A DNA stretch of 64,000 nt, from sequence record OR449013; one strand, given 5' to 3'. The notes under the pieces were generated by a model, which was not told where the DNA came from, did no database searches, and saw nothing but the letters and a program-made list of their open reading frames with translations. Shown here piece after piece: positions 28,380 to 37,103 of the stretch. The DNA is from Escherichia phage Mangalyan. The position numbers and the translations under genes are program-made. How positions within the stretch are numbered: the stretch's first letter is position 1; every line of letters starts with the position of its first letter.

Positions 28380-28698
28380 CGTTTATGTTCGGGCAAGGTC
28401 GCTAGTCTTGCCCCGCCATTTTCAGGCAGCTGCATGTCTCCATGCAGACCAGACTATATCTTATAAGCGACAAAAACCGCTTACCCTCCCGTTTCGAATC
28501 GCTTGATTCTACGTCTCTCGACTAGTCGTTGAACGTTCATCCTCTCGGATGCTTCGCTGCGGATTATCTAAATTAACACACTGTTACCATACCTTCGATC
28601 TCTCTTCGAAGCCTCTATAATGTTACCATGACAGGTTGGTGGTGTCAATAATAAAGATTTCCCCGCAATTAGGGAGGTTTTACGAGAGCTACAAATTA
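28380..28698 (-). ncRNA. group I intron (ORF-less) in terminase large subunit gene
   Basis: Minus-strand P (AATTGCGGGGAAA, 28656-28671), Q (AATCCGCAGC, 28551-28565), R (GTTCAACGACTAGTC, 28520-28534), S (AAGATATAGTCTGG, 28449-28462); P1 pairing exon GAGGGU with intron GCUCUC; in-frame TAA right after exon 1. Confidence 0.8.
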
Positions 28699-29124
28699 AC
28701 CCTCATCGAAGCAAACCATGGTGTACTCAAGCCCTTGGTGGTTAAGCTTATCTTGTACATACTCCATGTGGCAGTATTTTACAACAGCCCCCTTTTTGCT
28801 TCTATCCCACTTGCCAGTGTTCGGATCAAACCGTGGAAAAATGAACTTATGATCCTTCTCTCTGAACTTTGGCTTAATGTTTTCAGGCAGATCACTATAA
28901 ATAGCTACTGCTTTAGGCCATAGTCCACCCTCACCTTCCAACTGTGGGGTTGTTCTTCGGAACATAACCACAGAGCTGTGGGGGTCATCAATAATTTTAA
29001 GCGGCATCAACTGCAAGAGGAACGACTTGCCAGACCCAGCTGCACCGCCGATTACCAAAATATCTGCATCGTTTTCGAGGATCATCTTCTGCTTTTCAGA
29101 ACACGGTCCGTAAATCTTAGACAT
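28699..29124 (-). CDS. terminase large subunit, exon 1 (ATPase domain)
   Basis: Walker A GGAAGSGKS and Walker B VCFDEG; ORF terminates in intron. Confidence 0.8.
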
Positions 29125-29411: not shown

Positions 29412-29806
29412 CGATCCTCCTGATTGATACTCTCATTATAAATATCTATAAGCTGATCAGGGAGTGTTGACTTATTACCTTCAGGTGATTGGAGGTAGAT
29501 AATCTGCTTTTCTCTACCTTCCCTCTCAGCTATATTTAATTTATCCTGCAGATCAGAAAGAGATTTTTCAAGGTTTTTAACCTCCTCTGCGTGGCCCATT
29601 TTAATTTTGTCTGCCTGCTTTTGTTGCTGATCAAGGATCCGTTCCCACTTTAACTCTGTTGCTGACACACCCTCTTGGTAGGCATCATTAAGCTTAGAGT
29701 TAAACCAATACACGGCCCCAAGATAAGCTGTACCTATAGCCGCTGCAAAAACTAAACCTTTTATGATCCCTCTATACCTACTCAGCCATGTTAAACCTGA
29801 AATCAT
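29408..29806 (-). CDS. putative i-spanin
   Basis: 132-aa ORF with N-terminal transmembrane segment then charged coiled-coil region; coupled to the lipoprotein gene. Confidence 0.5.
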   Translation of the reverse strand: MISGLTWLSRYRGIIKGLVFAAAIGTAYLGAVYWFNSKLNDAYQEGVSATELKWERILDQQQKQADKIKMGHAEEVKNLEKSLSDLQDKLNIAEREGREKQIIYLQSPEGNKSTLPDQLIDIYNESINQEDR

Positions 29807-29823
29807 TTTAAGGCTCCAGAAAC

Positions 29824-29858
29824 GAAAAAACCCCGCAGCTATACAGCTAACGGGGCGG
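29824..29858 (-). terminator. rho-independent terminator
   Basis: CCCCG...CGGGG hairpin with palindromic loop followed by TTTTTTCGTTT on minus strand. Confidence 0.55.
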
Positions 29859-29911
29859 GTTAAAATTGAGTAACCTAAATAGATCGAAACTAACTAAAAG
29901 GAGACTAATAC

Positions 29912-30181
29912 TTATCGAGGCACTCGGTGGATGATTCTAACAGTAACTGCATTTTCATTCATCAAGTATGCATCTACATCTCTGTAAATATAAAACTTCT
30001 GCTCACTATCAACAACACAAGCTACCGCCCCTTCAGAGTTGTCTTCAAAAAAGACCACCACTGCATCGCAGCTGAGTTCATGATATGACTCTCGAAGATT
30101 TACAGCCAGAGGATTGAAATCGTCACGAAAATCTACGGTATGGGTTGGATTTACACGCTCTACAATTTTAAGTGTATACAT
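29912..30181 (-). CDS. hypothetical protein
   Basis: 89-aa ORF. Confidence 0.4.
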   Translation of the reverse strand: MYTLKIVERVNPTHTVDFRDDFNPLAVNLRESYHELSCDAVVVFFEDNSEGAVACVVDSEQKFYIYRDVDAYLMNENAVTVRIIHRVPR

Positions 30182-30227
30182 TTTAAAGGTTCCTTTTGTT
30201 TATATATGTTTAAAGTATAACTGAAAG

Positions 30228-30304
30228 TGGTCTCCACGGAGTGATTCGAACACTCGACCTCCTGATCCCAAATCAGGCGCTCTACCAAGCTGAGCTACGC
30301 GGAG
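30228..30304 (-). tRNA. tRNA-Pro (anticodon TGG)
   Basis: Cloverleaf folded by hand on minus strand: acceptor CTCCGCG/CGTGGAG, anticodon loop TTTGGGA, T-loop GTTCGAATC, encoded CCA. Confidence 0.8.
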
Positions 30305-30315
30305 TATTTACTATT

Positions 30316-30390
30316 TGGTGGCCCTGGGTGGAATTGAACCACCGTCTGGCGATTATGAGTCGCTTGCTTGAACCTTCCAGCTACAGGGCC
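30316..30390 (-). tRNA. tRNA-Met/fMet/Ile2 (anticodon CAT)
   Basis: Acceptor GGCCCTG/CAGGGCC, anticodon loop CTCATAA, T-loop TTCAATT, CCA encoded. Confidence 0.8.
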
Positions 30391-30391
30391 T

Positions 30392-30467
30392 TGGTGCTAA
30401 TGGCAGGACTTGAACCTGCAACCTATTGATTACAAATCAATTGCACTACCAATTGTGCTACATCAGC
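30392..30467 (-). tRNA. tRNA-Thr (anticodon TGT)
   Basis: Acceptor GCTGATG/CATTAGC, anticodon stem ATTGA/TCAAT with loop TTTGTAA, T-loop TTCAAGT, CCA encoded. Confidence 0.8.
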
Positions 30468-30472
30468 AAAAA

Positions 30473-30571
30473 GGTGCTAGGTGATGGAATCGAACCATCT
30501 ATGTATTCAACGACTACCTCGTCTATTTTCAGGATTAAAAATCCTCGCCCTTGCCAAAGGGCTTACCTAGC
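30473..30571 (-). ncRNA. atypical 99-nt tRNA-like gene (Lys-type UUU anticodon loop, ~30-nt variable region)
   Basis: Acceptor GCTAGGT/ACCTAGC, D-arm GCCC-TTTGGCAA-GGGC, anticodon loop TTTTTAA, canonical T-arm GATGG-TTCGATT-CCATC, but ~30 nt lie between anticodon stem and T-stem. Confidence 0.45.
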
Positions 30572-30669
30572 TCAGTATGTTGACCATGTTGCTAGTCGGC
30601 GATGACGACTGTAACATTTGATAATCCGGTTCTGCTTCCGGCTTTCGCTTAATTACAAGGTCAACAATG

Positions 30670-30760
30670 TGGCGGAGAGTAATGGAATCGAACCATCATC
30701 GAGTCATCCTCAATGGGACGGTTTTCAAGACCGCTTGAGCACCATTGCTCCCTACTCTCC
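30670..30760 (-). tRNA. tRNA-Ser (anticodon TGA), class II
   Basis: Acceptor GGAGAGT/ACTCTCC, anticodon loop CTTGAAA, long variable arm, T-loop GGTTCGATTCC, CCA encoded. Confidence 0.8.
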
Positions 30761-30874
30761 TTTATAAATTATACTGATAATGACACTGATTTTCGAGCAG
30801 TTAGTGACTAGTATAAACGACGATAAATATCAATGCCATTATCTGTATTATTTATGCATCTAAAAATATAAATT

Positions 30875-30961
30875 TGGTGGGGAGTGGTGGAGTCGAACCA
30901 CCCGAGTCGCAATGACAATAGATTTACAGTCTACACCGCTACCTCTACGGGATAACTCCCC
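30875..30961 (-). tRNA. tRNA-Tyr (anticodon GTA), class II
   Basis: Acceptor GGGGAGT/ACTCCCC, anticodon stem GTAGA/TCTAT with loop CTGTAAA, long variable arm, T-loop GGTTCGACTCC. Confidence 0.8.
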
Positions 30962-30965
30962 AATT

Positions 30966-31040
30966 TGGCACCCCGTACTGGACTCGAACCAGTGTCAACG
31001 GCTTAGAAGGCCGCTGCTTTATCCACTAAGCTAACAGGGC
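30966..31040 (-). tRNA. tRNA-Arg (anticodon TCT)
   Basis: Acceptor GCCCTGT/ACGGGGT, anticodon stem GCGGC/GCCGT with loop CTTCTAA, T-loop GGTTCGAGTCC. Confidence 0.8.
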
Positions 31041-31098
31041 ACTGGGTGGCTTTCTTTTACACCTTAGCCGCCAGAAAAGGTGGGAGACCATGTTTACA

Positions 31099-31127
31099 AT
31101 ATTACACTGTTAAGCAAAGTTTGTCAA
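31099..31127 (-). promoter_or_regulatory. sigma70-like promoter upstream of tRNA cluster (TTGACA-17-TAATAT)
   Basis: Minus-strand TTGACA (31127-31122) and TAATAT (31104-31099), ~55 nt upstream of tRNA-Arg. Confidence 0.5.
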
Positions 31128-31136
31128 GAAAATATT

Positions 31137-31475
31137 TTAGCTATTGCTAACAGGCTGTATTTCTGTAGTAAATGGCATAAAAGGTGCTGGTTTTTCAGCC
31201 TCTTCTACTACCACCTCTTCCTCTTCACCAAACATCTCATCATATTCTTCCTGCATTCGGTCTGCCTTATCAAGAACATACTCTGCAATGCTTTGACGAA
31301 TATTTTGTTTGGTTTTCGGGTCCAACATCAGCTCTCTTAAAACTTTGTGAGCTTCTGGAACCATCGCTATAAAAGATTCCTTCATATCAAGGATGTTCTT
31401 CTCTAGCTGAATGGCGTTGGACTCCTCTTTCAGAGGTCTGCCTCTACGGCGACGCTTTTTAGTTGTATCCGCCAT
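31137..31475 (-). CDS. hypothetical basic DNA-binding protein (possible small terminase subunit or regulator)
   Basis: ATG at 31475 with GGAGGAAA SD (track ORF extends spuriously to 31595); N-terminal KKRRRRGRP basic tract, acidic C-terminus. Confidence 0.4.
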   Translation of the reverse strand: MADTTKKRRRRGRPLKEESNAIQLEKNILDMKESFIAMVPEAHKVLRELMLDPKTKQNIRQSIAEYVLDKADRMQEEYDEMFGEEEEVVVEEAEKPAPFMPFTTEIQPVSNS

Positions 31476-33977: not shown

Positions 33978-34532
33978 TTACTCCCTACTGTCAATATCAA
34001 AACTCATTGCAATACGGTATGCCTCCTCTAATGGTAAGAGTCTCCCCCACACATCCCAACCGACATCAAGCTGCCTGCCAAACAACTGTTGTGTGGTTCC
34101 GTGAGCATGACCGAACAGTTGGACTGATCCGTGAGGCTTTCTGTTCCACTTTGCAAACTGGTAATGGCTCATACAGATCAAATTCTTGTTGTGGCGAAGC
34201 TCGTAATAATCTACAACCTCATGACCGAACTCTTTCATAATTCTGACAGTCGTCCTTGTGTCATGGTTGCCACGAACAAGAATAATATGTCCGTTCAACA
34301 TATTTAGAATATCTGGAAGTAAGTTGTTGATATTCTTATCATTAGTGCACGCAATATCTCCCAAGTGGAACACAGTGTCTGCAGGTGACACAACAGAGTT
34401 CCACTTGGCGATGATTCCCGCATTCATACTGTCAAGATTGTGATCATACTGAGATCTGTGTTTTTGACATGAATCAAACTCCATGACCCGCTGATGGAGA
34501 AAGTGTGTGTCGCTTGTTACAAAGTATTTCAT
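33978..34532 (-). CDS. calcineurin-like metallophosphoesterase (putative polynucleotide 3'-phosphatase)
   Basis: ATG at 34532 with GAGGA SD (track ORF starts upstream); motifs SDTHF, GDI, GNHD; starts 7 nt after the kinase stop. Confidence 0.6.
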   Translation of the reverse strand: MKYFVTSDTHFLHQRVMEFDSCQKHRSQYDHNLDSMNAGIIAKWNSVVSPADTVFHLGDIACTNDKNINNLLPDILNMLNGHIILVRGNHDTRTTVRIMKEFGHEVVDYYELRHNKNLICMSHYQFAKWNRKPHGSVQLFGHAHGTTQQLFGRQLDVGWDVWGRLLPLEEAYRIAMSFDIDSRE

Positions 34533-34539
34533 ACATTCC

Positions 34540-34950
34540 TCATTTAAGTTTAATGCAGTTTTTAAGCTGGCGTTCCATACGATCCACAACCTTGTCTGGA
34601 ACATCATGAATGCTTTTATTACCGTGGCGGTTTTCAACCACGATCACGGTATAACTATACCCATGACTGATTGCCATGTCAACATATTCCTGCACATGTT
34701 TTTCTTTTGTAAACGTATTACTTACCACGATACGGTCGTATCCCATACGCATCATATCTTCTACGTTATCTTTGCACCATTTTGCTGCGAGTGTTACTTT
34801 ACTTGCATCCCAGTTGTAATTGCCGTCATCGTCATACCAGAACATGTCGTTCTCAAAATGTGGATACAGACCCTCTAAAGATAGCGCATTTGCCAGTGTT
34901 GATTTGCCAGACCCTGGTAGACCACGCACGATATATAGCATTTTAGACAT
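34540..34950 (-). CDS. polynucleotide 5'-kinase-like P-loop protein
   Basis: ATG at 34950 with GGAGGG SD; P-loop GLPGSGKST resembles the T4 Pnk kinase domain. Confidence 0.6.
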   Translation of the reverse strand: MSKMLYIVRGLPGSGKSTLANALSLEGLYPHFENDMFWYDDDGNYNWDASKVTLAAKWCKDNVEDMMRMGYDRIVVSNTFTKEKHVQEYVDMAISHGYSYTVIVVENRHGNKSIHDVPDKVVDRMERQLKNCIKLK

Positions 34951-34978
34951 AGTGACCCTCCGTTTTAATTTCAACGGT

Positions 34979-35007
34979 AGTATACCTGACTGTTTTGTTA
35001 ATTTCAA
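34979..35007 (-). promoter_or_regulatory. sigma70-like promoter (TTGAAA-17-TATACT) for kinase/phosphatase operon
   Basis: Minus-strand elements in the divergent intergenic region. Confidence 0.45.
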
Positions 35008-35071
35008 GTGTTGACACTAGGTTATTTGTGTGGCAGGATAGACTGACAAAATGACAAATGAGGAACGTATA

Positions 35072-35986
35072 ATGAAGTATTTTAATGCAGACGACCTAGT
35101 TGACAAAGGTCTTGTAACCAGTAGGTATTACCCAGATCTCGGGCTAAAGATCTATAAATATGCCAGAAAAGTATTCTACAACAATCTGTGGCATTTGTCT
35201 CCGCGTTTACTGGAGTGCCGAGGTATTGTTGTTGGCAATGAGGGGAATGTTGTGGCATGGCCTTTCACAAAAGTATTCAACTTAGGAGAAAACTCCACCA
35301 ACCTACCGGACAGTAAACTTGTTACTGCGGTAGAGAAAAAGAACGGATTCCTCGGTGTGGTATCATCTCATAAAGGTGACCTATTGTTCTCAACAACCGG
35401 GTCTCTTGATTCTCCATATTGTAACCTTGCAAAGGAAACCATCCAAGAGCAATGTGGTAATTTAGATCTTATCAAGAAGGTTATGGGCAATGAAAACATG
35501 ACATTCATGTTTGAAATTTGTCACCCTTCAGATCCGCATATTGTTCAAGAAGACCATGGCGCATATTTGATAGGTTGCAGATATAATGATTCTGGAATAA
35601 TGCTACCAGAAGCAGCTTTAGATGGGATTGCCAAATACCTTGGTGCAAAACGTCCTCACACTGTGCGTGAAATTCCGTTCAGCTATGCAAAAGAGTTAGC
35701 TGCAGAAACAAGAGGTGAAGGATATATGATTCGTAAGCCTTACTACCCTTATGATCTGCAGTTGAAGATCAAGTCTCCATACTATCTGGCACGAAAGGCC
35801 GTAATGAGGGGTAAAGCTTGGAAGATTTGGGATGATGATATCTTTAAACGTGTTGACGAAGAGTTTTACGGCATGGTAAACTTCATTCGTAACAACTACA
35901 CAGAGGATGTATGGAACTGCCTCCTGGAGCAGGAACGCCGTGAGATACTTGACTGCTATTTCCACAACGAGGACTATATGCAATGA
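35072..35986 (+). CDS. putative RNA ligase (nucleotidyltransferase)
   Basis: Motif I EKKNGF (K-x-N-G), motif IV EGYMIR, motif V LKIKSP; second ATG 35072 preferred (GAGG SD) over track start 35051. Confidence 0.55.
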   Translation: MKYFNADDLVDKGLVTSRYYPDLGLKIYKYARKVFYNNLWHLSPRLLECRGIVVGNEGNVVAWPFTKVFNLGENSTNLPDSKLVTAVEKKNGFLGVVSSHKGDLLFSTTGSLDSPYCNLAKETIQEQCGNLDLIKKVMGNENMTFMFEICHPSDPHIVQEDHGAYLIGCRYNDSGIMLPEAALDGIAKYLGAKRPHTVREIPFSYAKELAAETRGEGYMIRKPYYPYDLQLKIKSPYYLARKAVMRGKAWKIWDDDIFKRVDEEFYGMVNFIRNNYTEDVWNCLLEQERREILDCYFHNEDYMQ

Positions 35987-36333
35987 AGAAGTTGATTGTG
36001 TGGCTGGATGACTTGAGAGATCCGTCAAATTACGGGCTCCAAGACGCTGTTTGGCTAAAGAATTCCTCCGAGTTTATAGATTTTATTAACGATAATAGAA
36101 AGCTCTACAGACGCGTTTCTGAGTGGCACATGGACAACGACCTTGGAGAGTTGTTCGAAGGGTACGATTGCCTATCTATGTTGGAGGAAAAATTTGTATT
36201 TGGTAAGCCCCCTGTAGTTGACAACGTGAAGATTTTCGTGCATACTTCTAACCCATCAGCGGCTCGTAAATTCATGCTTGCAGCTGACTCGTTTAAAAAG
36301 TTTGGAATAGAGATTAAACAAAACATCTACTGA
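35983..36333 (+). CDS. hypothetical protein coupled to RNA ligase and Sir2-like genes
   Basis: 116-aa ORF whose ATG overlaps the ligase stop. Confidence 0.45.
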   Translation: MKKLIVWLDDLRDPSNYGLQDAVWLKNSSEFIDFINDNRKLYRRVSEWHMDNDLGELFEGYDCLSMLEEKFVFGKPPVVDNVKIFVHTSNPSAARKFMLAADSFKKFGIEIKQNIY

Positions 36334-36341
36334 GGACACTT

Positions 36342-37103
36342 ATGCGACGACTGATTATTATCTCCGGTGCTGGTTTGAGCGCTGAATCTGGTATTCCCAC
36401 TTTCCGATCTGGTAGCACTGCAATGTGGGAGAATTTCAGCATCGATGAGGTGTGCAACATCCACACCTTTGCCAAGAACTACTACAAGGTGCATGACTTT
36501 TACAATGCACGTCGTGTAGCTCTAGGCGGTGTTGAGCCTAACCTTGCACATCTTCGGATCGCTGAGTGGTATTCCCGCTGGTCTGGTCGTGTGATCAACC
36601 TTACCACCAATGTAGATGATTTGCTGGAGCGTGCTGGTGTAAAACATGAAGATATTTTACATGTTCACGGGTATTTGCCAGAAATAGTCTATGAGGACGA
36701 TGAAGGAAGTGACGTCATTAAGGACATTGGATACTCTGAGGTAGATGCAGGAAAGTATACCTGGGTTAAACCTAATGTGGTGTTCTTCGGAGAAGTAGCT
36801 CCGAAGTATACAGACATGTATGACCTGTTGACTTCTCTTACAAGCAATGATATGGTTATCCTTGTAGGGTGTTCCAACACAGTTATCAATTTTAACTGGG
36901 AGCTATTCCCTGCCTGCAATAAGGGCACCAAACTGCTGATCGTTAACAAATACGACTCACAGCATCTAGAGGAGAATGGCATTTCACGTAGTGATATTTA
37001 CCAGTACGAGGATCGCGGCATCCCGGTTTGGTTTAACGGGGCGGTTGACGCTTTCTCTGATAAAACATTCATTGAGACCGTAGAAAACTTTATGGAACTT
37101 TAA
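36342..37103 (+). CDS. Sir2-family NAD-dependent protein (sirtuin-like, lacks Zn-ribbon cysteines)
   Basis: Rossmann motif ISGAGLSAESGIPTFR, TTNVDDL, catalytic HVHG, VVFFGE; no CxxC...CxxC zinc module. Confidence 0.7.
   Translation: MRRLIIISGAGLSAESGIPTFRSGSTAMWENFSIDEVCNIHTFAKNYYKVHDFYNARRVALGGVEPNLAHLRIAEWYSRWSGRVINLTTNVDDLLERAGVKHEDILHVHGYLPEIVYEDDEGSDVIKDIGYSEVDAGKYTWVKPNVVFFGEVAPKYTDMYDLLTSLTSNDMVILVGCSNTVINFNWELFPACNKGTKLLIVNKYDSQHLEENGISRSDIYQYEDRGIPVWFNGAVDAFSDKTFIETVENFMEL

What the first reader, a model, noticed from the sequence alone, without database searches (positions are those of the whole stretch)
30228..31040. Compact tRNA operon driven by its own promoter, adjacent to RNA-repair genes
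Six canonical tRNAs (Arg-TCT, Tyr-GTA, Ser-TGA, Thr-TGT, Met-CAT, Pro-TGG) plus the atypical gene sit on the minus strand behind a TTGACA-17-TAATAT promoter, some separated by only 1-5 nt. Their position next to a kinase/phosphatase/RNA-ligase set suggests a combined strategy against tRNA-targeting host defences, in addition to codon supplementation.
Basis: inference. Interest (0 to 1): 0.4.

Follow-up and report, generated by a model that had tools for sequence, protein, structure and literature searches.

The report
Known rV5 phage tRNA operon
This is the already published tRNA gene cluster of rV5-type coliphages, whose tRNAs match the codons the phage uses far more than its host does; the one odd member is a conserved tRNA-shaped RNA that probably does not decode, and its role is unknown.

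Summary
Seven tRNA-type genes lie on the minus strand at 30228-31040 behind TTGACA-17-TAATAT, with gaps of 1, 4, 5 and 11 nt.

The window is 99.5% identical to phage rV5. The rV5 GenBank record and the 2013 paper already give six of the tRNAs, the promoter and the codon-usage argument.

- **Corrections:** "Met-CAT" is almost certainly tRNA-Ile2, which reads AUA. The RNA-repair genes lie 2.9-4 kb away, not next door. Two ~100-nt gaps hold conserved structured RNAs, and the unit continues through an 89-aa ORF to an intrinsic terminator.
- **Function:** codon supplementation. AGA, AGG, ACA and AUA are the four codons most enriched over the host (rank-sum p≈5e-4).
- **Anti-defence idea:** unsupported for the six canonical tRNAs. 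Anticodon loops equal the host's except Thr position 32. tRNA-Thr keeps the PARIS cleavage motif. Vequintavirinae remain sensitive to the tRNA-cutting retron Eco2.
- **Atypical gene:** a five-arm tRNA-like RNA conserved across Vequintavirinae. All 374 pair cells are paired, and the G19:C56 elbow pair covaries. Its "anticodon" loop has only 5-6 nt.
- **Spacer motif:** the Ser-to-tRNA-like spacer recurs in lambda and P1.

The parts
31099..31127 (-). Sigma-70-type promoter P(tRNA): -35 TTGACA, 17-nt spacer, -10 TAATAT. An alternative reading is an 18-nt spacer with AATATT and TG.
   Evidence: Found by the promoter scan. Annotated as P(tRNA) in rV5 record NC_011041. Invariant in four relatives. 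Not tested experimentally.
31041..31098 (-). Promoter-to-tRNA-Arg stretch; about 50 nt of it would be the 5' leader of the precursor.
   Evidence: Read from the sequence. The aligned promoter-leader stretch is 99% conserved. No fold above background, z = +0.86.
30966..31040 (-). tRNA-Arg(UCU), CCA encoded. Reads AGA and AGG.
   Evidence: ARAGORN. Rfam 67.8 bits. 75% identical to E. coli argU with the same anticodon loop.
30875..30961 (-). tRNA-Tyr(GUA), long-arm (type II) tRNA, CCA encoded.
   Evidence: ARAGORN. Rfam 29.9 bits. Anticodon loop CUGUAAA is identical to E. coli tyrU.
30761..30874 (-). Spacer 2: a long RNA hairpin of about 18 bp (30764-30855) with a conserved loop of about 40 nt. 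Candidate RNase III site or small stable RNA.
   Evidence: Fold z = -4.45. In L040 and L041, C-G changes to U-A and G.U changes to G-C or A-U, keeping the pairing. The internal promoter-like TCGAAA-17-TATAAT is not conserved there.
30670..30760 (-). tRNA-Ser(UGA), CCA encoded, with a non-standard D region (A8). Homologous to an unannotated tRNA-Ser in P1/P7 and some lambdoid prophages.
   Evidence: Called only by ARAGORN. Below the Rfam tRNA threshold; 42.5 bits on tRNA-Sec. P7 copy.
30572..30669 (-). Spacer 1: a conserved structured RNA motif (covariance-model match 30578-30666). A variable closing helix encloses a conserved core with two hairpins. The same motif occurs in the lambda late leader and in the P1/P7 tRNA operon.
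   Evidence: 83% identical to lambda and P7. Six different closing-helix sequences. 96.8% of cells paired, and 7 of 8 closing-helix pairs show compensatory change. Found in 426 of 5426 E. coli genomes, never annotated. Not in Rfam.
30473..30571 (-). Atypical gene: a five-arm tRNA-like RNA with acceptor, D, short 'anticodon' arm, extra hairpin flanked by the motifs CUGAAAAUAG and UGAAUACAUAG, and T arm. The 3' end reads A-CC-U, not CCA.
   Evidence: ARAGORN '???'. Rfam tRNA 37.5 bits. 17 distinct homologues across Vequintavirinae. 100% of 374 cells paired, 9 compensatory pairs including G19:C56 to U:A. Four independent minimum-energy folds give the same shape.
30392..30467 (-). tRNA-Thr(UGU), CCA encoded. 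Reads ACA.
   Evidence: ARAGORN. Rfam 77.2 bits. The loop differs from E. coli thrU only at position 32 (U instead of C), and it keeps U36-A-A-U-C|A41.
30316..30390 (-). tRNA with anticodon CAU. Most likely tRNA-Ile2, which after lysidine modification reads AUA, and not tRNA-Met.
   Evidence: 76% identical to E. coli ileX, and less than 68% to metT/metU, which are not among its five closest comparison tRNAs. The stretch GCGACUCAUAAUCGC is identical to ileX, and C4-G69 and C5-G68 are present. AUA is 3.6-3.7-fold enriched in the phage, while AUG is not.
30228..30304 (-). tRNA-Pro(UGG), CCA encoded.
   Evidence: ARAGORN. Rfam 66.4 bits. 82% identical to T4 tRNA-Pro and 78% to E. coli proM, with the same loop.
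29912..30181 (-). 89-aa ORF (rV5 gp069, phrog_8729, function unknown). It lies 46 nt downstream of tRNA-Pro with its own ribosome-binding site and is probably co-transcribed.
   Evidence: ORF list. rV5 annotation. PHROG match with no Pfam match.
29825..29859 (-). Intrinsic terminator that ends the unit: a G+C-rich hairpin followed by TTTTTT.
   Evidence: Read from the sequence. The Murica record annotates a terminator at the equivalent place. The scan tool missed it because the loop is longer than 8 nt.
33978..34637 (-). Calcineurin-like metallophosphoesterase, the candidate end-healing phosphatase. The annotated start in rV5 gives a shorter protein.
   Evidence: Pfam Metallophos_2, E = 1.8e-6. 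PDB 1xm7, E = 1.3e-10.
34540..35007 (-). P-loop kinase-like protein of the AAA_33 family, the candidate 5'-kinase.
   Evidence: Pfam AAA_33, E = 1.8e-10. No PDB sequence match.
35051..35986 (+). Rnl1-family RNA ligase, transcribed divergently from the tRNA side.
   Evidence: Pfam RNA_lig_T4_1, E = 1.5e-14. NCBIfam T4 RnlA family at 37 bits, far below its cut-off of 242.
35983..36333 (+). cREC (cyclic-phosphate processing receiver) domain protein.
   Evidence: Pfam cREC_REC, E = 3.1e-15.

Best explanation
This is the tRNA operon of rV5-type coliphages (genus Vequintavirus), already described.

**How it is built (inferred).** One host-type promoter makes a single precursor. The order is: leader, Arg(UCU), Tyr(GUA), a long hairpin spacer, Ser(UGA), a structured spacer motif, a tRNA-like RNA, Thr(UGU), Ile2(CAU), Pro(UGG), an 89-aa ORF, and a terminator. 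Host RNases would cut the precursor. RNase P and RNase E are the likely enzymes, with RNase III possibly acting at the long hairpin.

**What it does.** The six canonical tRNAs mainly supply decoders for codons that the A+T-richer phage uses heavily and E. coli uses rarely, and for which E. coli has one or two tRNA genes. These codons are AGA/AGG, AUA, ACA, UCA/UCU and CCA/CCU. This is the same logic as the T4 tRNA cluster, with which it shares five of six anticodons.

**The seventh gene.** It is not a normal decoder. It is a tRNA-shaped RNA with a closed, shortened anticodon arm and an extra arm, kept throughout the subfamily for a role not yet known.

**Shown here:** the genes, the folds, the covariation and the codon match. 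**Inferred:** the single transcript, the processing route and the benefit to translation.
For: - **Identity of the locus.** 99.5% identity to rV5, whose record annotates the tRNAs and P(tRNA). The rV5 paper reports six tRNAs and the codon rationale (PMC3606486).
- **Codon match.** Comparison of 70 window ORFs with 41 MG1655 coding sequences gives these enrichments: AGA 8.7x, AGG 5.7x, ACA 3.9x, AUA 3.7x, CCU 2.9x, UCU 2.05x, UCA 1.85x, UAC 1.6x.
- **Rank test.** The rank sum of the six cognate codons gives p≈0.0005 with the Ile2 reading and 0.012 with the Met reading. AGA, AGG, AUA, UCU and CCU are higher in the structural-gene half.
- **Ile2 assignment.**
- **Mature 3' ends.** All six canonical genes encode CCA.
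- **Promoter.** Promoter and leader are invariant in relatives.
- **Unit end.** A terminator follows the ORF.
- **Spacers and tRNA-like gene.** Structure and covariation are supported.
Against: - No expression, processing or fitness data were available.
- No terminator separates the upstream ORF (which ends at 31137) from the promoter, so read-through from upstream promoters is possible.
- CCA and UAC/UAU are only modestly enriched (1.3-1.6x), so Pro and Tyr are less well explained by codon supply.
- Codon supplementation and anti-defence supply are not mutually exclusive.
- The host sample for codon usage was only 41 genes.
Confidence: 0.75

Rival explanations
1. The cluster's main selected role is counter-defence. 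By producing its own Tyr, Thr and a Lys-like RNA from a strong promoter, together with the kinase/phosphatase/Rnl1 repair set, the phage keeps translating when host anticodon nucleases deplete host tRNAs. Candidate nucleases are retron Eco7 PtuAB, PARIS AriB, PrrC and Schlafen-type enzymes.
For: - T5-type phages evade retron Eco7 with a highly expressed tRNA-Tyr, and even E. coli tRNA-Tyr rescues when driven by the phage promoter (PMC11555353).
- This operon has Tyr, Thr and a Lys-like arm behind a perfect -35 hexamer.
- Rnl1, a kinase-like protein, a phosphoesterase and a cREC protein lie 3-5 kb away, recalling T4 Pnk and Rnl1 acting against PrrC (established knowledge).
Against: - The anticodon loops of the six canonical tRNAs equal the host's, except Thr position 32.
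- Phage tRNA-Thr retains UAAUC|A, the AriB site, whereas T4 Thr has UAAUG|A and T5 variants are mutated there.
- The tRNA-cutting retron Eco2 defends against BASEL Vequintavirinae, which carry this operon at 98-99% identity.
- Five of the six anticodons are explained by codon enrichment.
- The repair genes are 10-11 kb from the tRNA-like gene in other genera.
Confidence: 0.2
2. In Vequintavirus, the atypical gene is a working though unusual tRNA-Lys(UUU). It would have a 4-bp anticodon stem, the 7-nt loop UUUUUAA and discriminator A73. It would be charged by LysRS and used in decoding, perhaps as a nuclease-resistant substitute. Several GenBank records annotate it this way.
For: - The Rfam tRNA model aligns it with loop UUUUUAA, giving anticodon UUU with U33 and A37.
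- BASEL and other records call it tRNA-Lys.
- The discriminator is A.
- The motif is UAAUC|C, with C at position 41 as in the resistant T5 Mut2 substitution.
- AAG is 2.3x enriched in the phage.
Against: - The fifth stem pair (U-A in this lineage, C-G in others) covaries, which leaves only a 5-nt loop here and a 6-nt loop elsewhere.
- The minimum-energy fold closes the loop to 3 nt.
- Sister lineage TH18 has UAU in place of UUU. The Seunavirus, Mydovirus and GAP31-type lineages have CAUCCA-type loops without U33.
- Position 8 is A, not U.
- The variable region is 31 nt, longer than in any standard tRNA.
- E. coli has six tRNA-Lys(UUU) genes, five of which were seen, so extra supply is not needed.
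Confidence: 0.12
3. The two spacers and the tRNA-like gene have no function of their own. They would be processing scaffolds or decayed tRNA genes that survive by hitch-hiking between essential tRNAs.
For: - All three lie inside a precursor that must be cut, and tRNA-like shapes recruit RNase P.
- In 22 of 120 loci the spacer-1 motif directly follows tRNA-Ser(UGA).
- Two recombinant loci have mismatched halves of the closing helix.
Against: - Compensatory changes maintain every helix of the tRNA-like RNA across four or more genera and seven or more host genera, including a tertiary pair.
- Its single-stranded motifs are invariant or nearly so.
- It is kept in rV5-type phages that have cut their tRNA set to six, while relatives have 17-24.
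- The spacer-1 core is conserved in lambda, where no tRNA is present.
Confidence: 0.15

Closest known systems
Phage T4 tRNA cluster (eight tRNAs plus the small stable RNAs rnaC and rnaD)
   Same: Closely packed tRNA genes sit on one strand and are co-transcribed with extra structured RNAs of unknown role. The two clusters share anticodons Arg-UCU, Ser-UGA, Thr-UGU, Ile-CAU and Pro-UGG. The Pro genes are 82% identical. Both match codons that are rare in E. coli.
   Different: This operon has Tyr in place of Gln, Leu and Gly. No homing endonuclease is inserted. The extra RNAs show only background similarity to rnaC and rnaD (52% or less). The T4 repair genes pseT and rnlA are not near its tRNA cluster (established knowledge).
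Phage T5 anti-defence tRNAs: tRNA-Tyr against retron Eco7, and the tRNA-Lys, Thr and Asn variants against PARIS
   Same: These are phage tRNAs of the same specificities (Tyr, Thr, and a Lys-like arm), expressed from a strong host-type promoter.
   Different: The T5 Lys, Thr and Asn tRNAs carry substitutions at the AriB cleavage site, while the Thr here does not. There is no experimental rescue data for rV5-type phages.
E. coli tRNA-Ile2 (ileX/ileY) and T4 tRNA-Ile
   Same: All have a CAU anticodon. The anticodon stem-loop matches ileX, and the C4-G69 and C5-G68 pairs are present.
   Different: Overall identity to ileX is 76%. The lysidine modification was not shown.
tRNA-like non-decoding RNAs, for example mascRNA and the tRNA-like domains of tmRNA and Y-RNA-like YrlA
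   Same: They share an acceptor and T-arm elbow that the tRNA-processing enzymes can recognise, with an anticodon arm that cannot decode.
   Different: There is no sequence or model match to any of these: the only weak Rfam matches in the region (mascRNA-menRNA, YrlA, permuted tmRNA) lie over the canonical tRNA genes at 30251-30390, not on this gene. The extra arm with its two conserved flanking motifs is specific to this family.
Phage lambda late-leader small RNAs (6S RNA and LPR2)
   Same: In lambda, the spacer-1 motif lies in the same non-coding late leader, starting about 10-20 nt 3' of the region detected by the LPR2 probe.
   Different: It is not LPR2 itself. The probe maps upstream of the motif, and no published name or function was found for the motif.

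Membership tests
Phage tRNA operon (T4-type) | Several tRNA genes, tightly spaced on one strand | tested here: met
   Seven genes lie within 813 nt, with gaps of 1, 4, 5 and 11 nt plus two gaps of about 100 nt.
Phage tRNA operon (T4-type) | Common promoter and terminator, giving a single precursor | tested here: inconclusive
   A consensus-like, conserved promoter and a downstream intrinsic terminator are present. No transcript data were available.
Phage tRNA operon (T4-type) | tRNAs cognate to codons enriched in the phage relative to the host | tested here: met
   The cognate codons rank 1, 3, 4, 11, 15 and 25 of 61, p≈5e-4.
tRNA-Ile2 (lysidine, reads AUA) | CAU anticodon with an ileX-type anticodon stem-loop | tested here: met
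   GCGACUCAUAAUCGC is identical to ileX.
tRNA-Ile2 (lysidine, reads AUA) | Acceptor pairs C4-G69 and C5-G68. These are TilS determinants (established knowledge, recalled from memory and not re-read here). | tested here: met
   The acceptor stem is GGCCCUG/CAGGGCC, whereas metT has U4-A69 and A5-U68.
tRNA-Ile2 (lysidine, reads AUA) | Lysidine at position 34 and charging with isoleucine | not testable with these tools
   This needs mass spectrometry or tRNA sequencing of infected cells.
Nuclease-evading phage tRNA (T5 or mycobacteriophage type) | Substitutions in the anticodon stem-loop, relative to the host tRNA, at the nuclease recognition or cleavage site | tested here: not met
   The loops of Arg, Tyr, Ser, Ile2 and Pro are identical to the host's. 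Thr differs only at position 32 and keeps UAAUC|A.
Nuclease-evading phage tRNA (T5 or mycobacteriophage type) | Rescue of infection in a nuclease-carrying host | not testable with these tools
   The only indirect datum is that retron Eco2 still restricts Vequintavirinae.
T4-type tRNA repair (Pnk plus Rnl1) | Rnl1-family RNA ligase | tested here: met
   Pfam RNA_lig_T4_1, E = 1.5e-14. The NCBIfam equivalog scores below its cut-off, and there is no PDB sequence match.
T4-type tRNA repair (Pnk plus Rnl1) | Bifunctional Pnk: a P-loop kinase fused to a HAD-type 3'-phosphatase | tested here: not met
   The kinase-like protein (AAA_33) and a calcineurin-type metallophosphoesterase are separate proteins. 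The layout works like Pnk but is a different architecture, closer to the bacterial Pnkp type.
Canonical decoding tRNA (for the atypical gene) | Seven-nucleotide anticodon loop with U33, on a 5-bp stem | tested here: not met
   The 5-bp stem is supported by covariation and leaves a loop of 5 nt (rV5, TH18) or 6 nt (other genera). U33 is absent in most lineages.
Canonical decoding tRNA (for the atypical gene) | L-shape elements: acceptor, D and T arms, G18-G19 and the T-loop, and the 19:56 pair | tested here: met
   100% of cells are paired, and G19:C56 changes to U19:A56 in 5 of 17 sequences.

The most novel reading that the evidence does not exclude
The seventh gene is a previously uncharacterised, subfamily-wide tRNA mimic that acts in the conflict over tRNAs. 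It would work as a decoy or inhibitor that binds host tRNA-directed nucleases.

In the E. coli-infecting lineages its arm imitates the anticodon arm of tRNA-Lys(UUU). It carries UAAUC followed by C41, a change known to blunt PARIS AriB cleavage. It may work together with the nearby kinase, phosphoesterase and Rnl1 repair genes.

Separately, the spacer motif shared with lambda and P1 would be a new, widespread phage RNA element.
Probability: 0.2. Interest if true: 0.65.

Novelty: already known. Interest (0 to 1): 0.3.

Why it matters
As stated, the finding adds nothing to the 2013 rV5 description. Three points are still of practical use.

1. **Annotation of the CAU tRNA.** The "Met" tRNA, which the rV5 authors found "seemingly unwarranted", is best read as the AUA-decoding Ile2. 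This completes the codon-supplementation picture and corrects many GenBank records.

2. **The atypical gene.** GenBank records label it tRNA-OTHER, tRNA-Lys or tRNA-???, or leave it unannotated, sometimes under a spurious hypothetical-protein call. It is a well-supported structured RNA family that does not appear to decode. It is present in phages of E. coli, Salmonella, Klebsiella, Cronobacter, Proteus, Enterobacter and Raoultella, some of which are used for biocontrol and therapy.

3. **The spacer motif.** A structured RNA motif in this operon is shared with lambda and P1 and occurs in about 8% of complete E. coli genomes without any annotation.

The tRNA-like RNA and the spacer motif are each cheap to test experimentally.

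Tried and rejected
- **ARAGORN's four-base anticodon.** ARAGORN's structure for the atypical gene gives a four-base anticodon "atcc" in an 8-nt loop. Its stem (AUUUU/AAAAU) has no counterpart in Seunavirus homologues, so I rejected it.
- **Internal promoter in spacer 2.** The -10 of the promoter-like site TCGAAA-17-TATAAT is not conserved in L040 and L041. I treat it as a chance match.
- **Homology to T4 rnaC and rnaD.** The tRNA-like gene and the spacers show only background identity of 43-52%.
- **Spacer-1 motif as lambda LPR2.** The LPR2 probe maps just upstream of the motif, so the two are adjacent, not the same.
- **Antisense targets.** I searched the window for targets of the two invariant single-stranded motifs. 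Matches were at the chance level.
- **Genome-contig scan for the spacer motif.** The 21 hits fall in unrelated genera, several on contigs of about 48.4 kb with low coverage. These look like lambda spike-in contamination and were not used.
- **PDB sequence searches.** The ligase and the kinase-like protein gave no hits.
- **Literature search for the motif sequence.** It found nothing.
- **Metagenome scan for the tRNA-like motif.** More than half of the 23 hits were chance matches without tRNA context and were discarded.
Full report
**1. Observation**

ARAGORN finds seven genes on the minus strand at 30228-31040:
- Pro-TGG (30228-30304)
- Met-CAT (30316-30390)
- Thr-TGT (30392-30467)
- an unassigned 99-nt gene (30473-30571)
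- Ser-TGA (30670-30760)
- Tyr-GTA (30875-30961)
- Arg-TCT (30966-31040)

Rfam's tRNA model supports Thr, Arg, Pro and CAT at 60-77 bits, the atypical gene at 37.5 bits and Tyr at 29.9 bits. Ser falls below the tRNA threshold and scores 42.5 bits on the tRNA-Sec model, whose cut-off is 47.

The promoter is there: TTGACA at 31127-31122, a 17-nt spacer, and TAATAT at 31104-31099. The short gaps of 4, 5, 1 and 11 nt are real. All six canonical genes encode their CCA end. The atypical gene ends A-CC-U.

**2. What the locus is**

The stretch 29800-31400 is 99.5% identical to Escherichia phage V5 (rV5, genus Vequintavirus), and more than 100 related genomes cover it fully. The rV5 RefSeq record already annotates six of the tRNAs and a "Sigma70-type promoter; P(tRNA)" at this position. 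Other records add the seventh gene as tRNA-OTHER, tRNA-Lys or tRNA-???.

The rV5 paper reports six tRNAs. It argues from codon usage that they speed translation, and it calls the Met tRNA "seemingly unwarranted" (PMC3606486). The finding as written is therefore already known.

**3. Extent of the unit**

- The promoter and the stretch down to tRNA-Arg (31041-31098) are 99% conserved in relatives whose spacers have diverged.
- No terminator-like site lies between the upstream ORF, whose stop codon is at 31137, and the promoter. Read-through from upstream promoters is therefore possible.
- An 89-aa ORF of unknown function (29912-30181; phrog_8729, no Pfam match) starts 46 nt after tRNA-Pro, with its own ribosome-binding site.
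- A G+C-rich hairpin with a T6 run at 29825-29859 ends the unit. The Murica record annotates a terminator at the equivalent place.

**4. The CAU tRNA is Ile2, not Met**

It is 76% identical to E. coli ileX (tRNA-Ile2). metT and metU are not among its five closest matches, which puts them below 68%. The stretch GCGACUCAUAAUCGC of its anticodon stem-loop is identical to ileX.

It has C4-G69 and C5-G68, where tRNA-Met has U4-A69 and A5-U68. I recall these pairs from the literature as TilS determinants; I did not re-read the source.

AUA is 3.6-3.7-fold enriched in the phage, whereas AUG is not (0.91x). T4 carries the same kind of tRNA, annotated as Ile.

**5. Function of the six canonical tRNAs**

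I compared codon frequencies in 70 ORFs of the window with 41 annotated MG1655 genes. The most enriched codons were AGA (8.7x), AGG (5.7x), ACA (3.9x), AUA (3.7x) and CCU (2.9x). UCU, UCA and UAC were at 2.05x, 1.85x and 1.6x.

The six cognate codons rank 1, 3, 4, 11, 15 and 25 of 61. A random set of six does this well with p≈0.0005, or p=0.012 if the CAU tRNA is read as Met. AGA, AGG, AUA, UCU and CCU are more frequent in the structural-gene half of the window. Five of the six anticodons are also those of T4. Codon supplementation is thus strongly supported.

**6. The counter-defence idea**

The repair-type genes are real:

| Window position | Strand | Family (Pfam) |
|---|---|---|
| 33978-34637 | - | metallophosphoesterase |
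| 34540-35007 | - | AAA_33 kinase-like protein |
| 35051-35986 | + | Rnl1-family ligase |
| 35983-36333 | + | cREC domain protein |

These come, with weaker support. They lie 2.9-5 kb from the promoter, beyond six small ORFs. In other genera the ligase is 10-11 kb from the tRNA-like gene.

Published work shows that phage tRNAs can defeat tRNA nucleases. They do so either by abundance (T5 tRNA-Tyr against retron Eco7) or by substitutions at the cleavage site (T5 Lys, Thr and Asn against PARIS AriB, which cuts at U36-A-A-U-C|A41).

Here the anticodon loops of Arg, Tyr, Ser, Ile2 and Pro are identical to the host's. Thr differs only at position 32 and keeps UAAUC|A. Retron Eco2, which cuts tRNAs, defends against BASEL Vequintavirinae, and those phages carry this operon at 98-99% identity.

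So there is no sequence sign of nuclease evasion. Supply by abundance, especially of Tyr, remains possible but untested.

**7. The atypical gene**

Homologues occur throughout Vequintavirinae: Vequintavirus, TH18-like phages, Seunavirus, GAP31-type phages and Mydovirus. Their hosts are E. coli, Salmonella, Cronobacter, Klebsiella, Proteus, Enterobacter and Raoultella. The gene is usually unannotated or lies under a spurious "hypothetical protein".

The evidence for a conserved tRNA-like fold:
- In 17 distinct sequences, all 374 pair cells of the acceptor, D, "anticodon" and T helices are standard pairs.
- Nine pairs show compensatory change. One of these is the tertiary elbow pair G19:C56, which becomes U19:A56 in five sequences.
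- Slid controls give 28-46% pairing (an earlier 12-sequence set is).
- Four independent minimum-energy folds give the same five-arm shape, with z-scores of -2.9 to -4.4.

The evidence that it does not decode:
- The fifth pair of the "anticodon" stem covaries (U-A to C-G). This leaves a loop of only 5 nt in rV5 and TH18, and 6 nt elsewhere.
- The loop sequence is not conserved: UUUUA, UUAUA, CAUCCA, CCUCCA, CCACCA, CAGCCA, CCUCAA.
- Position 8 is A.
- The variable region holds an extra hairpin. The hairpin's sequence changes completely while it keeps pairing in most lineages, though only about 3 bp remain in Ro1 and NDO71. It is flanked by conserved single-stranded motifs, CUGAAAAUAG and UGAAUACAUAG, of which CUGAAAA and AAUACAUAG are invariant.

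rV5-type phages keep this gene although they carry only six tRNAs, against 17-24 in relatives. I conclude it is a conserved tRNA-like RNA that does not decode in the normal way, and its role is unknown.

One lead deserves a test. In the E. coli-infecting lineages the arm reads UUUUUAAUC|CUG with discriminator A. That is a tRNA-Lys(UUU)-like arm with C at position 41, and A41C is one of the two substitutions that make T5 tRNA-Lys resistant to AriB. This fits a decoy or a resistant substitute, but it is lineage-specific and unproven.

**8. The spacers**

*Spacer 1 (30572-30669).*
- It is 83% identical over about 85 nt to phage lambda, between orf-64 and S. There it starts 10-20 nt 3' of the region probed for the small RNA LPR2.
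- It is equally similar to P1/P7, where it follows an unannotated tRNA-Ser(UGA), just as it does here.
- Six different closing-helix sequences surround a conserved core.
- On a model-fitted alignment of 18 distinct sequences, 96.8% of cells pair and 7 of 8 closing-helix pairs show compensatory change, against 23-49% pairing in slid controls. Because the alignment was fitted to the structure, these counts lean towards it.
- G.U pairs place the structure on the transcribed strand.
- The motif is in 426 of 5426 complete E. coli genomes and in at least 120 IMG/VR contigs, never annotated and not in Rfam.
- tRNA-Ser(UGA) lies directly upstream in 22 of 120 loci.

*Spacer 2 (30761-30874).* It folds into a hairpin of about 18 bp (z = -4.45), with compensatory changes in relatives. 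It may be an RNase III site or a small stable RNA.

**9. Verdict**

Codon supplementation is the best-supported function. The counter-defence reading is not supported by the sequences of the canonical tRNAs, though it is not excluded. The interesting residue is the tRNA-like RNA and the spacer motif shared with lambda and P1, both well supported as structured RNAs and both without a known role.

Noticed in passing
window 30572-30669 (-); L003 710-798 (lambda); L004 1489-1576 (P7): An unannotated structured RNA motif is shared by the rV5 tRNA operon, the lambda late leader (starting 10-20 nt 3' of the LPR2 probe region) and the P1/P7 tRNA operon. Its closing helix covaries through six sequence variants. 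It occurs in about 8% of complete E. coli genomes and is not in Rfam.
   Followed up: yes
L004 1590-1676 (-), Enterobacteria phage P7: ARAGORN finds a tRNA-Ser(UGA) that is not annotated in the P7 record. It is homologous to the Ser gene of this window, and both share a non-standard D region with A8.
   Followed up: partly
window 28430-28708 (-): A group I intron (Rfam 83.8 bits) interrupts the terminase large-subunit gene. The rV5 record joins that gene from three pieces and places an HNH endonuclease ORF inside it.
   Followed up: no
phage records MG065654, MG065655, MG065666 and others: About 20 GenBank records named 'Campylobacter phage' are 99.3-99.4% identical to this E. coli rV5-type region. 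They are probably mislabelled or contaminating coliphages.
   Followed up: no
window 36342-37103 (+) and 35983-36333 (+): A SIR2-family protein and a cREC (cyclic-phosphate processing receiver) domain protein lie directly downstream of the RNA ligase. The RNA-repair neighbourhood is therefore larger than kinase, phosphatase and ligase.
   Followed up: no
L075 and L084 (IMG/VR lambdoid contigs): These are recombinant copies of the spacer motif, with a P1-type 5' half and a lambda-type 3' half. Their closing helix no longer pairs. The conserved core may serve as a recombination point between phage families.
   Followed up: partly
L188 1-195 (Raoultella phage Ro1); L192 (Klebsiella phage K18PH07C1): HNH endonuclease genes sit directly upstream of, or are annotated across, the tRNA-like gene in some Mydovirus genomes. 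This recalls segB in the T4 tRNA cluster.
   Followed up: no
Genome-contig loci L165-L185: Exact matches to the lambda version of the motif appear in assemblies of Pseudomonas, Shewanella, Bacillus-group and other genera. Several are on low-coverage contigs of about 48.4 kb. This is most likely lambda control-DNA contamination of those assemblies.
   Followed up: no
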